IMG/VR virus record: IMGVR_UViG_3300034062_004002
Direction: 5' to 3' (one strand)
DNA: 20,000 nt
Source: an uncultured virus (IMG/VR IMGVR_UViG_3300034062_004002)
Lineage: Duplodnaviria > Heunggongvirae > Uroviricota > Caudoviricetes
Position 1 is the first letter of the stretch; every line of letters starts with the position of its first letter. This document shows positions 989 to 12,184 of this stretch, piece after piece. The position numbers were made by a program, and so were the translations under genes. The notes beneath the pieces were generated by a model, which made no database searches, was not told the DNA's origin, and saw only the letters and a program-made list of their open reading frames with translations.

Positions 989-992
989 TTTG

Positions 993-1076
993 TACCCTTG
1001 GAGAGATTCGAACTCTCAATGTCGTTATGACTCCTGAACCTAAATCAGGCGGCTATACCAATTTGCCTACGAGGGT
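993..1076 (-). tRNA. trnL: tRNA-Leu (anticodon UAG), CCA not encoded
   Basis: Acceptor ACCCUCG/CAAGGGU (one mismatch), D loop with UGG, anticodon arm CCUGA-UUUAGGU-UCAGG, long variable arm GUC-AUAAC-GAC, T arm GAGAG-UUCGAAU-CUCUC, discriminator A. Confidence 0.95.
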
Positions 1077-2360: not shown

Positions 2361-2448
2361 TGTTGGAGACAGGATTCGAACCTGTATTCAGGGACTTAAA
2401 GTAAATTCCCCCTCTAAGTTTGTATGGCAACCATTACGCCACTCCAAC
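2361..2448 (-). tRNA. tRNA-like element with a non-canonical D/anticodon region (no assignable anticodon)
   Basis: Perfect acceptor GUUGGAG/CUCCAAC with discriminator A, perfect T arm ACAGG-UUCGAAU-CCUGU, and D-like GGCG-UAAUGGU-UGCC. The centre (AUACAAACUUAGAGGGGGAAUUUACUUUAAGUCCCUGAAU) does not form a 5-bp stem with a 7-nt loop in the canonical position. Confidence 0.7.
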
Positions 2449-4290: not shown

Positions 4291-6105
4291 TCAACCTTTT
4301 CTTCTGTTATTACTACTAAAAATATTTGGAGGAGAACTTTTTTTATTTTTTTTAACGTCACCAAACTCTCTTGATTGATAGACTAATGAATCTTTTTTAA
4401 TTTCGGTTATCTTCATTCTGTCAACAGGTTTATTTTCTCTAATAGGTTTTATATGATTTACAGGGATATAAACTCCTTTTTGTTGGGTAATTTTATTTAT
4501 TAAATCATAATCAACCTTTGTTTTAGGTAATTTGGGGTTAGTTAGAATATTACTCAACACCTCATTAACAACCATCTTTTTATGTTTAATTTCATCGAAC
4601 CCTTCAATAGGGTTAAAATGATTGACAAAAACTTCGTAGAATTGAGATATCTGTAACATAGGTAAAGGTCCAAATGTTTTTTTATTTTCAATGAGGTTAT
4701 TATATTTAGTCCTCACTATTGACCCATAACCTGTCTGTCTTGATTGTGTTAAACTATTTTGATGTAGTCTTCTATAAAATAAAACTGTTGGGCTATTAAT
4801 TGATTTACAATTATTTTTATATAACCTACCCATAAAATCTGTATCAGCCGATGTTCTCCAACCTTCAAACCCATTCATAGATAAGAATAACTCTTTTTTT
4901 ATACTAAAAACCCCTTCACCCCAAAAGTTTTCTTTACTTACAAAATTATTGTTAGGTGTTTCTCCTGTAAAATTTAAATATTTAGGTCTTACGAAATCAA
5001 TAAACATTTGTAATCTAAGAATTTCTTTAATCATATTTTCCCCCATAACATCATCGGAATCAAAAAATAGAATTATATTTGAATTAGAATTTTTAACTAA
5101 TGTGTTTTTAACAATGTATGGTCCAACATTTTGTTGGAAATAGAAAAATCGTATCCTATCATCAAAAATATTATGTTTAATAAACTCTAAAGTTTTTTCA
5201 CAATTATCGATACCCACTAAAATTTCACAATTCAACGACTTTACCGACTCAATAACTGACGATAAACATTGTATTATAAATTCGGTATTATTAAACGTAG
5301 GTATTATTATTGAAATCTCTTTGTTTGTCAGTATGTTAATTTGAGGTCGGTTAATATATTTTAATTTAATATCATTAAAAGACTCACCATTAACTTCAAT
5401 AAAAGGAGCAATCTTTAACACATTTAAAGGTCCATGTTGGTTTTTTATTTGTTTTATTTTCTTTTTTTCGTGATATTTTTTTCTTAAAGGAGAATTCATA
5501 CCAGTAATACCACCACCCGTTAAATTCGACTCATGTCTTCTATAAAAAAGACCCACCGTATTTAAAGTTTTTATTTTTTTTCCACTGGACAACATCCTCC
5601 AATAAAACTCACCATCCGAAGCACAAACCCACGGCTCAAACCCATTTGAGTCAGTAAAAACTTTTTTAATTATTCCAAAAGTACCTGAATGGTAGTTGGA
5701 ATCAGTCATAACCAATTCTATATTAGTAGGTAATGTAAGTTTTCCTTGGAATGTCCTATACCCATATCTAACATAATCATAAGATTTTAAAGAGTCGATA
5801 ACCTTAGTTACTAACGTAGTTAACATAACATCATCAGAATCAAAAAATAATAGTTTATCATATTTTGAAATTGATACCAAAGTATTACGAATAATATACG
5901 TCCCGACTTTTTCGGTAAAAAAAAGAATTTTAATATTTGGGGGGAATGTTTTCTTAATTAAATTAAGATATGTTAAGGTTTTTTCACAGTTATCAATACC
6001 AACAAGTAACTCATATTCAGTATTTCCACAAGACTTTACTATAGAATCTAAAGCCTCTTTAATATAAAGAGTGTTATTGTGTGCGGTTACAATTATTGAT
6101 ATCAT
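4291..6105 (-). CDS. Glycosyltransferase with two tandem GT2 (GT-A) domains
   Basis: Two copies of ISII(V/I)xxxNN...EI/LLVGIDNC...VGxYI..NTLV...LFFDSDD...NGFExW..xD..F..R...FYRR, followed by a basic C-terminal tail. Confidence 0.93.
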   Translation of the reverse strand: MISIIVTAHNNTLYIKEALDSIVKSCGNTEYELLVGIDNCEKTLTYLNLIKKTFPPNIKILFFTEKVGTYIIRNTLVSISKYDKLLFFDSDDVMLTTLVTKVIDSLKSYDYVRYGYRTFQGKLTLPTNIELVMTDSNYHSGTFGIIKKVFTDSNGFEPWVCASDGEFYWRMLSSGKKIKTLNTVGLFYRRHESNLTGGGITGMNSPLRKKYHEKKKIKQIKNQHGPLNVLKIAPFIEVNGESFNDIKLKYINRPQINILTNKEISIIIPTFNNTEFIIQCLSSVIESVKSLNCEILVGIDNCEKTLEFIKHNIFDDRIRFFYFQQNVGPYIVKNTLVKNSNSNIILFFDSDDVMGENMIKEILRLQMFIDFVRPKYLNFTGETPNNNFVSKENFWGEGVFSIKKELFLSMNGFEGWRTSADTDFMGRLYKNNCKSINSPTVLFYRRLHQNSLTQSRQTGYGSIVRTKYNNLIENKKTFGPLPMLQISQFYEVFVNHFNPIEGFDEIKHKKMVVNEVLSNILTNPKLPKTKVDYDLINKITQQKGVYIPVNHIKPIRENKPVDRMKITEIKKDSLVYQSREFGDVKKNKKSSPPNIFSSNNRRKG

Positions 6106-6716
6106 TTCACGGGTTTTTCTCCTTCGTTTAATTTTGATAATGTATTATTATCATGAATAACTAATTTTACATCACCAATTGCTGGAATGTAAATAATATT
6201 TCTAGTTATTCTAGGTAACAAGTCGTGTACTTGGTCAAAAATCCCATTTTTTACTTTTTTCTGTATTAAAGTTGAAAACATAGAACATACTTTACTATAA
6301 TCCCTACTATGAAAATAATCTTTTCCTGTTAAATCATCATGTTTATAGGGGTGAAAGTTTAAAATAAAATCATCATATTTAGATTTATTATTTTCATACA
6401 ATTGATGTATTTTTTCTATATAATTAGGTGACATATAATCATCACAATCATGTCTTGTTTGGATTGTAATATCATTATTTATCGCATATTCTCGATAATC
6501 GTTTTTAACGTCCCCAAACATTAAAATCTCAATATTTTTATCAATAGAATCTCTTATTGTTTGATAATGTAATGGGTTCACTATTAAAGCAATTTTAAAA
6601 TTTTTATCTGTTTGAGAATTTATTGAGGGTATATAATATTTTTTTATTGCTGAAAAATACTTATTAAACCTTTCATCATCTTTAAAATTACATCTGGTTA
6701 CTATTAAATGTTTCAT
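6102..6716 (-). CDS. Putative GT-A fold glycosyltransferase (putative rhamnosyltransferase-like)
   Basis: LIVTRCN...YYIPSINSQTDKNF...QTRHDCDD (DxD) pattern. 4-nt ATGA overlap with the GT2 gene. Confidence 0.7.
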   Translation of the reverse strand: MKHLIVTRCNFKDDERFNKYFSAIKKYYIPSINSQTDKNFKIALIVNPLHYQTIRDSIDKNIEILMFGDVKNDYREYAINNDITIQTRHDCDDYMSPNYIEKIHQLYENNKSKYDDFILNFHPYKHDDLTGKDYFHSRDYSKVCSMFSTLIQKKVKNGIFDQVHDLLPRITRNIIYIPAIGDVKLVIHDNNTLSKLNEGEKPVK

Positions 6717-6725
6717 ATTGTTAAT

Positions 6726-7406
6726 TTAACTATTAAAAAATTTATTTCTTACATTATACAATTGAGCTTTATTCCCTAATTTTTGGAATTTTAATACAGG
6801 ACTATACGTTAAAATATCTTTTTTAGTTGAGTTCTCTTTCCCAATCCATCGTTCCCAATAATACCTATGACTTGTTGGTTCAGGGGGAGTAAGATGTTCT
6901 TTAACATACCTTGACCTAATCCAAAAAAAATTATACCAAATAAACCCAAATTCACTAGGAAAAATTCCACCAATGTCTAAAGTTTTATTTTTTAAAAATT
7001 CGTTTAAATATTCTTCATAATTTTCAATTGTGTATTTAAATAATTGTCCTCTTAAAATATTCCTTTCAGGATATTTTACATTAGAAAACATACCTTTAGT
7101 ATGAAAATATAAAATTATTGAATCCTCTTTTTGGGATAAGTCGTAGATTGATTTAATTCCTGGATATTCATACATATTTTTTTCAACTCTATTGAATATT
7201 TGAATCTTCTTAAACTTACTCCATAAATGTTGTTTTATTCGTTTTAACTGTTGGTCATTACACTGTAGACTAATATAAATTTCATCGGCATCATCATATA
7301 TCTTAGAATTTTTTAATGACCATAATTGTTCTAAAACAATTTCCTCCCATTTATCCTCTAATAAGGATGCGAAATATACTATTTTTACTTTTTCGTCACC
7401 AATCAT
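6726..7406 (-). CDS. Putative glycosyltransferase-associated protein (YEYP...LYFHTKG...NFFW...YYWERWIG)
   Basis: Clean ORF heading the glycosyltransferase operon. The motif set resembles uncharacterised GT-like proteins of large viruses; function is inferred from context. Confidence 0.55.
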   Translation of the reverse strand: MIGDEKVKIVYFASLLEDKWEEIVLEQLWSLKNSKIYDDADEIYISLQCNDQQLKRIKQHLWSKFKKIQIFNRVEKNMYEYPGIKSIYDLSQKEDSIILYFHTKGMFSNVKYPERNILRGQLFKYTIENYEEYLNEFLKNKTLDIGGIFPSEFGFIWYNFFWIRSRYVKEHLTPPEPTSHRYYWERWIGKENSTKKDILTYSPVLKFQKLGNKAQLYNVRNKFFNS

Positions 7407-7481
7407 AATATCAATCTCTTTATATCAATTAAATATACTTTCGTTTCGAATCTTGTAAATTATTACTCGGTGGAGTTATAT

Positions 7482-7511
7482 AAAACACAAAAGGGTGTCT
7501 TTCAACACCCT
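7482..7511 (-). terminator. Intrinsic terminator of the 12163-7583 operon
   Basis: AGGGUGUU-GAAA-GACACCCU followed by UUUGUGUUUU. Confidence 0.8.
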
Positions 7512-7523
7512 ATTTGCTTGATT

Positions 7524-7578
7524 TGGATACCCCCTTTCTTTAATTTGGTTTATCCCGTGTGAGTAATTACCTCACAGG
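7524..7578 (-). other. Structured 3' UTR containing an extended Shine-Dalgarno-like sequence with no downstream AUG
   Basis: Hairpin UGUGAG/CUCACA (7576-7571/7563-7558), then AGAAAGGGGGUAUCCA (7539-7524), which is complementary to the 16S rRNA 3' tail. Confidence 0.55.
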
Positions 7579-7582
7579 TATT

Positions 7583-9304
7583 TTAAGAAGTTGCTAACGC
7601 TTTTTGTTTTAACGTGTCGGTAGCAACATTCATCTTATTTTTAACTCCTCCAAGTAACGGACAGATAAAACTTCCTAACGCTTCTTCGATTTTAGAACCC
7701 AAAGAAGTTTCGTCTAACATATCAACAATTGAGTTTCTAAGTATATCGTAGAACGGACCTTCAAGACCTTTTTCGTGAGTTAATTTTCTAACCGTCCCTT
7801 CAGCAACTGACTTTGAAATTAATTTTGTTAAGAAATTACAATCAGTTAATTTAGGAATGTCCCCAATCGGTAAGTTACCAATAGCGGTGATAACAATACT
7901 TCCTAACCATCCGTTAGAATCCATAGGAGTTAAATGTTCAACTAACCATTTAGCAATGTATTCTTTAAAATATTCCATAATACCATCAGGTGCATGACCA
8001 AATAAACCTTTCAATGTATCCCAAAATCCTTCGTTAATAATTTTTTTGTCAAATCCTTGTGAGTTTAAATAAGTCATTTCAGATAACAATTCATCAAAAA
8101 ACTTATCTTTTTGTTTTTTAGTTTTAAGACTAACATTTTCTGAAATAATTGATAATCTAGCCTTAACTATTTTACCCTCACTTAACACATTTCTTTCTTT
8201 AGTTTTTTTAGTTTCAATTAAACTTTCTCTAATTAGATTTTTTAATTGTTTTTCTTTACTTTCTCTTTGAACTGTTGACCCTGCATTAACATTTAAACTA
8301 TAGTCAGTTAGACCACCTGTTTGTGTTTGTACGGGATTCGCAAATTGTAATCTTTCCGCCGATTTTGCAAATTTAGGGTAATTATTTATACAATTTCTAA
8401 TTACAGGTTTCATCATTTTAAGTCTTTCGGGACTTAACTCTAATTTTTTATCATACGCATTACCGTAAAGTTCAATCGCATTTTTACAAGAAACTTTTCT
8501 TGTTTTTTCATCACCTGATTTAGCACTGTTCACCGCTACATCTAATTTTTTAATAACGTCCGCATCAGCTAAAATATTAGGATTGTAGTACATGTAATAC
8601 GTTGTTTGAAAATCCTTATAAGTTTCAGGATTATCCGATTCAAGTGATAAGTCAGCAACGATATAACCAAAAGAACTTCCTTCAGGTAAATCTTTTTTCT
8701 CAATCCAACCTAATGTTTTCCTTCTTTCAACAGTTTTAGTTGATAAGTCTAAATCGTATTGTTGCGCCCCTTTTTTAACCCAAACTTTTGCGACACCAAT
8801 ATTATTTCCTAAGATTTTAACAAGTTCCTCAGCATAAGGTGAATTCTTATTTTCAATAGTTGTAATTGCATCGGATAGTTTAACTAATGTCCAACCTTCA
8901 CCTACAGGTTTTTCAACACCCTCGTTCCAAGCAACAACTTGATTTGATGTAAATTCAGCTAAACGGCCTAAAGCTTTTTGTTGGTCAGGAGTTAAAATAG
9001 AATCTTGAGTTTTATTTAATTTTTCGCAATACCATTTTGTTGTTCTAACAATTTTACCTGCTTTATCTCCTGTGGTTCTCCACTCTCTTTTTCCATCAGG
9101 GAAGTCAAATACGTGAGGATTAGCTTTATTATCGGGGTTTGTTGATTGTTGGTAAACAACCTCTCCACCCCCCTTTGGGTCAATAAATGGTCCGGTGACT
9201 TTAGGCCAACATCCTGCGGTAAACGCTTTTTGAAGTTTTTCTTCTTTGAATTGAGCTGCCCCTGGATTAAGTACGTCTTCTTTTATAAATCTTTTATTTT
9301 TCAT
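7583..9304 (-). CDS. Hypothetical protein (573 aa), probable virion/internal head protein
   Basis: Long ORF in the TATTTAT-driven operon, with a cluster of [IL]xE sites (LIRESLIE, VLSE, IISE, IINE) ahead of a helical amphipathic C-terminal domain. Confidence 0.6.
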   Translation of the reverse strand: MKNKRFIKEDVLNPGAAQFKEEKLQKAFTAGCWPKVTGPFIDPKGGGEVVYQQSTNPDNKANPHVFDFPDGKREWRTTGDKAGKIVRTTKWYCEKLNKTQDSILTPDQQKALGRLAEFTSNQVVAWNEGVEKPVGEGWTLVKLSDAITTIENKNSPYAEELVKILGNNIGVAKVWVKKGAQQYDLDLSTKTVERRKTLGWIEKKDLPEGSSFGYIVADLSLESDNPETYKDFQTTYYMYYNPNILADADVIKKLDVAVNSAKSGDEKTRKVSCKNAIELYGNAYDKKLELSPERLKMMKPVIRNCINNYPKFAKSAERLQFANPVQTQTGGLTDYSLNVNAGSTVQRESKEKQLKNLIRESLIETKKTKERNVLSEGKIVKARLSIISENVSLKTKKQKDKFFDELLSEMTYLNSQGFDKKIINEGFWDTLKGLFGHAPDGIMEYFKEYIAKWLVEHLTPMDSNGWLGSIVITAIGNLPIGDIPKLTDCNFLTKLISKSVAEGTVRKLTHEKGLEGPFYDILRNSIVDMLDETSLGSKIEEALGSFICPLLGGVKNKMNVATDTLKQKALATS

Positions 9305-12163: not shown

Positions 12164-12170
12164 CTATTTT

Positions 12171-12177
12171 ATAAATA
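12171..12177 (-). promoter_or_regulatory. Putative phage late promoter TATTTAT
   Basis: The same heptamer lies just upstream of seven genes; here it is 7 nt before the ATG. Confidence 0.6.
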
Positions 12178-12184
12178 TCGTGGT

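What the first reader, a model, noticed from the sequence alone, without database searches (positions are those of the whole stretch)
7482..7582. Orphan extended Shine-Dalgarno (16S 3'-tail complement) in a 3' UTR just before a terminator
Seen: the plus strand reads TGGATACCCCCTTTCT, close to the 16S rRNA 3' end (TGGATCACCTCCTTTCT; TGGAACACCTCCTTTCT in many Bacteroidota). The minus-strand mRNA therefore carries AGAAAGGGGGU, able to form 11 contiguous pairs (one G-U) with the anti-SD. It lies between a hairpin and the terminator with no AUG/GUG at normal spacing (only AUC AAG CAA AUA GGG UGU UGA), and I saw no such SD before genes in this window. Known: Bacteroidota ribosomes occlude the anti-SD through bS21/bS18/bS6, and some of their large phages encode bS21. 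Inference: a 30S-binding element or small RNA that senses, captures or titrates ribosomes with an exposed anti-SD late in infection.
Basis: partly seen in the sequence, partly recalled or inferred. Interest (0 to 1): 0.72.

Follow-up and report, generated by a model that had tools for sequence, protein, structure and literature searches.

The report
Phage RNA mimicking ribosome-docking signal
A family of giant lake phages keeps a small folded RNA at the end of one gene that carries a start-codon-less copy of the long ribosome-docking signal their hosts reserve for one ribosomal protein gene, so it probably grips the normally hidden tail of the host's 16S ribosomal RNA, though no binding has been shown.

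Summary
The minus strand carries AGAAAGGGGGU (7529-7539), able to form 11 pairs with a Bacteroidia 16S tail. 88 of 90 loci chosen by the upstream protein have a site of -12 kcal/mol or stronger just after the stop, against 5 of 296 and 12 of 315 gene ends in two complete relatives. All 5 complete relatives searched encode bS21, and 0 of 59 aligned copies have AUG/GUG/UUG behind the site. Against the simple reading: P2 covaries and hides part of the site; one large group lost the site's 3' half but kept P2; the pairing energy alone is not unique genome-wide; no discrete RNA was seen. Best reading (0.45): a late, non-initiating trap for 30S subunits with a freed 16S tail, competing with host rpsU feedback. 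Rivals: protein-binding RNA, ribosome-coupled terminator. No Rfam family and no paper found. This scan noted what appears to be the same RNA on other DNA six times.

The parts
7583..9304 (-). Upstream gene (573 aa, P0001), function unknown; conserved all-helical C-terminal domain. The RNA element starts a few bases after its stop codon.
   Evidence: No Pfam or PHROG family; no fold match at E<=0.001.
7558..7576 (-). P1 hairpin (UGUGAG / CUCACA, loop beginning GUA)
   Evidence: 5 of 5 pairs show changes on both sides, 92.9% of cells paired.
7547..7555 (-). P2 5' strand: GGAUA, unpaired AA, CC
   Evidence: The AA is invariant in 59 of 59 rows.
7534..7546 (-). P2 loop, ending in the exposed AGAAAG(G), complement of the last 16S nucleotides (about 1538-1544)
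   Evidence: Unpaired probability 0.8-1.0 in the window sequence; column table.
7529..7539 (-). Extended Shine-Dalgarno-like sequence AGAAAGGGGGU, 11 possible pairs with the Bacteroidia 16S tail
7525..7533 (-). P2 3' strand: GG (paired with CC), GG (internal loop), UAUCC
7520..7522 (-). AUC at start-codon spacing (6 nt after the U). In most relatives it is followed at once by a stop codon; here it opens 6 codons, to 7502.
   Evidence: ATC in 58 of 59 rows, a stop as next codon in 48 of 59; spacing 5-9 nt against 6-12 for 9 host rpsU leaders.
7482..7511 (-). Intrinsic terminator hairpin (7511-7492) and U-rich tail; terminator-like on both strands
12169..12183 (-). Approximate place of a TATTTAT motif, a candidate late promoter at the head of the three-gene run (12163 to 7583) that ends in the element
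   Evidence: the motif is about 15-fold enriched upstream of genes; it lies upstream of terminase, portal and prohead protease in G004. The promoter role is inferred.

Best explanation
Shown: a single-copy, conserved, structured RNA at the 3' end of one gene of large (269-322 kb) bS21-encoding phages, on the strand that carries the SD-like site, with no normal start codon behind it. Inferred: it ends a late polycistronic mRNA. Its loop (AGAAAG/G) acts as a toehold for the last nucleotides of the host 16S tail. Pairing then opens P2 and gives a 9-13 bp helix like that of host rpsU mRNA, with AUC (usually followed by a stop) at the P-site position. In these hosts mainly 30S subunits lacking bS21 or with a loosened tail can use such a site. 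The RNA would therefore hold those subunits in a complex that makes no protein, compete with host rpsU mRNA and damp the feedback that restores host bS21, favouring loading of phage bS21.
For: Conservation: 88 of 90 protein-selected loci at -12 kcal/mol or stronger, against 5 of 296 and 12 of 315 gene ends, counts that include the element itself. Positions facing C1539 and C1538 are G in 59 of 59 rows; every change at positions 0-6 keeps pairing (A to G facing U; one G to A that suits U-ending tails); no pyrimidine at positions 0-8, while the 5 upstream loop positions vary freely. Sampled host rpsU leaders show the same variants (CGAAAGG, UGAAAGGGGGU, GAGAGG). Net pairing after unfolding is -11.8 here, median -10.3. 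bS21 is in 5 of 5 complete relatives and 16 of 35 fragments. 17 of 18 phage bS21 genes have no site at -7 or stronger. SD sites before genes of 80 aa or more are rarer than mock sites (6 vs 18 of 298; 14 vs 21 of 317). Strand: 83 G-U cells against 12 A-C cells in the stems. Mechanistic basis: PMC9976891 and PMC7797042, read in passages.
Against: Only 45 of 90 loci reach -13, the rpsU-type threshold, and my energies come from a different program than the paper's. One large group has AGAAAGGGGA(A/G)AAU at -12.5: it changed the 3' half so as to keep P2, not 16S pairing. The partner of C1535 is A in 19 of 59 rows and that of A1534 is U in only 31 of 59. L003 reaches only -8.4 with the main tail and L299 lacks the element. 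The deep member in G129 has U facing C1543. Purine-only changes are also just transitions and fit any purine-rich protein site. The rows are related, so events are few. No bS21-less complete relative was found, so the link to bS21 is untested, and bS21 in the window's own phage is unknown. G004 has a run of small ORFs with strong SDs that my 80-aa cut-off left out. There is no binding or expression evidence.
Confidence: 0.45

Rival explanations
1. A protein-binding RNA. P2 with its AA/purine internal loop and purine-rich loop is recognised by a protein: host or phage bS21 (as an SD-anti-SD duplex mimic, like P6 of OLE RNA), bS18, bS1 or the upstream gene product. Pairing with 16S is secondary or incidental.
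For: P2 is kept when the SD 3' half is lost. The unpaired AA and AUCU are conserved. OLE P6, an SD-anti-SD mimic, binds bS21 (PMC12054373, passages). The element always follows the same gene family, even a truncated form.
Against: The 5' strand lacks the CCUCCU that OLE uses. Loop changes all keep 16S pairing. AUC sits at start-codon spacing. The model of the upstream protein's conserved domain matched no known fold.
Confidence: 0.22
2. A cis switch. A ribosome docked at AUC on the nascent RNA covers the terminator's 5' arm and allows read-through, so the phage senses ribosomes with a free tail.
For: The terminator 5' arm lies at +12 to +15 from the A of AUC in 59 of 59 rows, within an initiation footprint (recalled: about +16).
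Against: The next gene is convergent in 36, co-directional in 34 (several unrelated families) and unassigned in 20 of 90 segments. In G004 the convergent gene is an HNH nuclease. There is no constant regulated gene.
Confidence: 0.13
3. A STAB-SD-like stabiliser: a bound 30S protects the mRNA or a 3' fragment from decay.
For: There is precedent for a non-initiating SD that binds 30S (PMC4113751, passages).
Against: STAB-SD lies in a 5' UTR and blocks 5'-3' decay of what follows. Here only about 45 nt and a terminator follow, and normal host ribosomes do not use SDs.
Confidence: 0.08
4. An unrelated structured RNA (processing or packaging signal, or partner of another phage RNA) whose likeness to an SD is coincidence; or an antisense 16S-tail mimic read from the plus strand.
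For: Sites of similar energy occur by chance in whole genomes. The 3' half of the site is not universal.
Against: The core is kept from 99% down to 33% protein identity. No conserved complement was evident in G003 or G004. G-U pairs point to the SD strand.
Confidence: 0.12

Closest known systems
Extended SD of rpsU (bS21 autoregulation) in Flavobacteriales and other Bacteroidia (PMC9976891, PMC7797042)
   Same: Long pairing with 16S nt 1532-1544; the same sequence variants; similar spacing to the codon position; an otherwise SD-poor genome.
   Different: No AUG and no ORF; at a 3' end rather than in a leader; partly locked in a stem; encoded by a phage; weaker in half of the loci.
STAB-SD of Bacillus thuringiensis cry3A (PMC4113751)
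   Same: An SD that does not start translation and is thought to bind 30S.
   Different: STAB-SD is in a 5' UTR of an SD-using organism and blocks RNase J1. This element is 3'-terminal, structured, and in a host whose tail is sequestered.
P6 of OLE RNA, an SD-anti-SD mimic that binds bS21 (PMC12054373)
   Same: A stem in which an SD-like strand is paired within the same RNA; a link to bS21.
   Different: OLE is about 600 nt, in Bacillota, and carries a perfect CCUCCU. This RNA is about 100 nt, lacks it, and has no Rfam match.
bS21-encoding freshwater phages (PMC9723584)
   Same: Relatives are 269-322 kb and encode bS21; in G004 it lies beside terminase, portal, prohead protease and capsid genes.
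   Different: The parts of that paper I read describe no such RNA; term search gave 0 hits for 'intergenic', 'non-coding' and 'small RNA'.

Membership tests
rpsU-type extended SD initiation region | 9-13 bp pairing with 16S nt 1532-1544, stronger than -13 kcal/mol | tested here: met
   Window: 11 bp, -16.8. Family-wide only 45 of 90 reach -13.
rpsU-type extended SD initiation region | AUG start codon and bS21 ORF downstream | tested here: not met
   0 of 59 have AUG/GUG/UUG; AUC in 58 of 59.
rpsU-type extended SD initiation region | Preferential use by bS21-lacking ribosomes | not testable with these tools
   Needs toeprinting or a reporter.
STAB-SD | SD-like site that directs no normal initiation | tested here: met
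   No normal start codon; AUC initiation cannot be excluded.
STAB-SD | Located in a 5' UTR, protecting a downstream gene | tested here: not met
   Lies after a stop codon and before a terminator.
OLE RNA P6 bS21 site | Perfect anti-SD (CCUCCU) paired to an SD-like strand, within OLE RNA | tested here: not met
   The P2 5' strand is GGAUA-AA-CC; no such Rfam match.
OLE RNA P6 bS21 site | Direct bS21 binding | not testable with these tools
   Needs a binding assay.
Any Rfam 15 family, including abiF (RF03085) | Covariance-model match | tested here: not met
   Nothing over the core at E<=10. One 22.7-bit overlap at 7559-7675 is far below its gathering score of 219.
Ribosome-controlled attenuator | A constant co-directional gene behind the terminator | tested here: not met
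   36 convergent, 34 co-directional and varied, 20 unassigned of 90.
bS21-encoding freshwater phage clades | bS21 gene in the genome | tested here: inconclusive
   5 of 5 complete relatives have it; the window's own genome is not held.

The most novel reading that the evidence does not exclude
The RNA is a phage-made ribosome-remodelling tool. Its toehold pulls the 16S tail out of the bS21/bS18/bS6 pocket, and the AUC-stop unit lets the ribosome load and release in cycles. This loosens host bS21 for exchange with the phage copy while keeping tail-exposed subunits off host rpsU mRNA. Similar minimal SD-AUCUA-terminator units in unrelated phage contigs may make this a wider class of phage anti-SD RNAs.
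Probability: 0.2. Interest if true: 0.9.

Novelty: categorically new. Interest (0 to 1): 0.7.

Why it matters
How phage bS21 gets into host ribosomes, and how the phage avoids the host's rpsU feedback, is open. McNutt et al. speculate that such phages encode products that help bS21 exchange and that autoregulation is a counter-defence (PMC9976891). A conserved phage RNA that copies the rpsU docking site without a start codon is a concrete candidate and can be tested with existing F. johnsoniae strains and reporters. If true, it would be a viral RNA aimed directly at the 16S tail.

Tried and rejected
Own genome: not held. The nearest record G001 is a 22-kb fragment without the element or bS21. 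GenBank phages: no match for the protein, only chance-level DNA matches. Metatranscriptome contigs (4 of 8 listed runs laid): one 151-nt contig at depth 3 covers 7426-7576 and runs through the terminator; three other runs cover only the gene, one reaching 7563. This shows neither a discrete RNA nor its absence. RNAalifold did not predict P2 and gave a 2-bp GG/CC hairpin instead; MAFFT misregisters the G run, and I named P2 by eye from these same sequences, so the slid control favours it. For P2a the count of pairs with double changes (3 of 6) was reached by 138 of 500 shuffles; only percent paired, cells changed and covariation score beat all shuffles. The 'net' column was a script error and was redone. 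A conserved peptide was rejected: the codon after AUC is a stop in 48 of 59 rows, but UAC, AAG or UCG in 11. An own promoter was not found: TATTTAT in 1 of 92. A cellular copy was not found: 1 weak match in 101 Flavobacteriaceae-level genomes, running into an ORF start; the 19 pattern hits in genome contigs lack the architecture by eye. abiF RNA: no Rfam match (passages). An integration-site copy of the 16S end was rejected by inference, because the G-U-type differences are mismatches in DNA. Function of P0001: no family, Atlas hits under 0.9 and unnamed, no fold match. The protein tree (39 of 59 rows, 20 left out by my filter) has many open forks and was not used to count events. Relatives cannot be drawn for a virus record, so no bS21-less complete relative was tested. 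The distant look-alike contigs are fragments without bS21 (0 of 5), which is uninformative.

Full report
Setting. The window is about 31% GC, with tRNA genes and mostly unannotated ORFs. No own genome is held. Relatives of the gene before the finding (7583-9304, P0001) lie in contigs of up to 322 kb. All 4 complete records searched encode bS21 (a fifth locus was not held), as does the complete G129, where the element was found by model. In G004, bS21 lies among terminase, portal, prohead protease and capsid genes. This matches the bS21 phages of PMC9723584, predicted to infect Bacteroidetes (parts 1-2 of 6 and passages read). Whether the window's own phage has bS21 is not known.

Observation. 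AGAAAGGGGGT is at 7529-7539 on the minus strand. I took 16S 3' ends from 30 Bacteroidia loci; 16 of 30 have the tail used as the main one. The window site forms 11 pairs at -16.8 kcal/mol and is the best on either strand of the window. This alone is not decisive. The pattern with one mismatch is expected 0.66 times by chance. In whole relatives the orthologous site ranks 4th (G004) or outside the top ten (G003).

Conservation. I selected loci by the protein, not the motif: 19 viral and 77 metagenome loci, of which 6 were dropped because the contig ends too early. Of the 90 left, 88 have a site at -12 or stronger within 90 nt of the stop and 45 at -13 or stronger. The exceptions are L003 (-8.4, element present) and L299 (element absent). 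Among all gene ends in G004 and G003, 5 of 296 and 12 of 315 reach -12, counting the element itself. The loci are redundant: alignment A2 has 59 distinct rows, some found by motif, and 30 distinct 22-mers around the site. The element persists down to 33% protein identity and behind a truncated form of the gene. Model R1 finds one strong copy in each of G003 and G004, plus a weak terminator-like hit in G003. It found no convincing copy in 101 Flavobacteriaceae-level genomes. Rfam has no family for it.

Anatomy. P1 covaries at 5 of 5 pairs and the terminator at 6 of 7. GGGAUA/UAUUCC changes to GGGAUU/AAUUC, GGUAUU/AAUACC or GGAAUA/UGUUCC, and CC/GG changes to CUC/GAG. In P2a 91.1% of cells pair, against 82.7 +/- 1.2 in shuffles, but the number of doubly changed pairs is not above shuffles, RNAalifold did not find P2, and I named it from these sequences. 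Folding the trimmed element gives P2 in the window sequence, with AGAAAG unpaired, two Gs paired, two unpaired and the U paired. G-U cells outnumber A-C cells 83 to 12, and the SD strand folds better in 54 of 59 rows, so the SD strand is the structured one. AUC follows 5-9 nt after the partner of A1534, against 6-12 nt for AUG in 9 SD-bearing host rpsU leaders. It is followed by a stop in 48 of 59 rows but not in this window.

Does it pair with 16S? The two positions facing C1539 and C1538 are G in all 59 rows. The few changes at positions 0-6 all keep pairing, and no pyrimidine occurs at positions 0-8. My anchor pattern constrains those columns, but an unanchored list of purine runs from the protein-selected loci gives the same cores. 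Host rpsU leaders show the same variants. The tail nucleotides matched by the loop are those held by bS6 and bS18 in the F. johnsoniae structure (PMC7797042, passages). Net pairing after unfolding is -11.8 here and -4.8 to -15.2 in the family; this ignores the protein pocket. Against: one large group changed the 3' half to keep P2 and lost 16S pairing there, the G129 member has a mismatch opposite C1543, and purine-only changes also suit a protein site.

Transcript context. A TATTTAT motif is about 15-fold enriched before genes and precedes terminase, portal and prohead protease in G004. It precedes the first gene of the 12163-7583 run and is nearly absent just before the element (1 of 92). 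I infer that the element ends a late polycistronic mRNA; whether it is cut out is unknown. The next gene is convergent in 36 and co-directional in 34 of 90 segments, with 20 unassigned, which argues against control of a downstream gene. Genes of 80 aa or more in these phages rarely have SDs, nor do 17 of 18 phage bS21 genes. A run of small G004 ORFs does have strong SDs.

Mechanism. In F. johnsoniae, ribosomes lacking bS21 translate rpsU through its extended SD, and the authors speculate about stable 30S-mRNA complexes and about phage products that aid bS21 exchange (PMC9976891: parts 1 and 4 of 9 and passages). My best reading (0.45) is a non-initiating trap for tail-exposed 30S that competes with rpsU mRNA. 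Every step from binding onward is inference. Rivals: a protein-binding RNA, with OLE P6 as precedent (0.22); a ribosome-coupled terminator (0.13); a STAB-SD-like stabiliser (0.08); an unrelated role (0.12).

Novelty. It fails the membership tests for rpsU leaders, STAB-SD, OLE P6 and attenuators. Literature searches listed no paper on such a phage RNA. The library lacks most subscription journals, and I opened no supplements; the RNA-mapping tables of PMC9723584 and Figure S7 of PMC9976891 could bear on expression and on the rpsU comparison. Six earlier notes of this scan describe what appears to be the same RNA on other DNA. I saw them after finding the conservation and before testing bS21 and rpsU; they gave me the rpsU-decoy wording and are not independent support. 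Verdict: a real, conserved, uncatalogued phage RNA with a plausible but unproven ribosome target; interest 0.7.

Noticed in passing
window 992-1076 and 2361-2448, minus strand: tRNA-Leu(TAG), and a second tRNA-like match (32.5 bits in Rfam) that ARAGORN does not call.
   Followed up: no
window, upstream of 12163, 12433, 13922, 14883, 16537, 14934, 18919, 19569; G003 and G004: ATATTTAT/TATTTAT motif, about 15-fold enriched before genes and present before virion genes; a candidate late promoter.
   Followed up: partly
L394:19300-20000 (G004): Four consecutive junctions of small related ORFs, each with GGAGGTGA followed by an ATG overlapping or adjoining the previous stop: strong SDs in an otherwise SD-poor phage.
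   Followed up: no
L153, L158, L160, L161, L171 (2470-2573 in L153/L171); L154, L194: Two other phage groups carry a perfect SD, then 6-7 nt, ATCTA and a terminator behind a gene for a small hydrophobic protein. R1 scores three L153-group loci at E 5e-4 to 8e-3 and L154 at chance level.
   Followed up: partly
L149, L150, L204, L216 (near 2500): Minimal units of SD, 7-8 nt, ATCTA and a terminator, two of them right behind a TATAAT box, with the SD paired in a hairpin; possibly ~65-nt RNAs in phages of other hosts. Found with a pattern that demanded SD and ATCTA.
   Followed up: no
L038, L059, L079, L098: The upstream gene ends at the start of the conserved C-terminal domain, yet the RNA element is intact.
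   Followed up: partly
L148, L181, L198, L214: In these distant members the P1-like hairpin lies inside the coding sequence and the stop codon is only 10 nt before the core.
   Followed up: partly
window 4291-7406: A glycosyltransferase cassette follows the terminator here, where many relatives have a convergent HNH nuclease gene.
   Followed up: partly
L381 (G130): One phage bS21 gene has a moderate SD-like site (-9.6), unlike the other 17.
   Followed up: no
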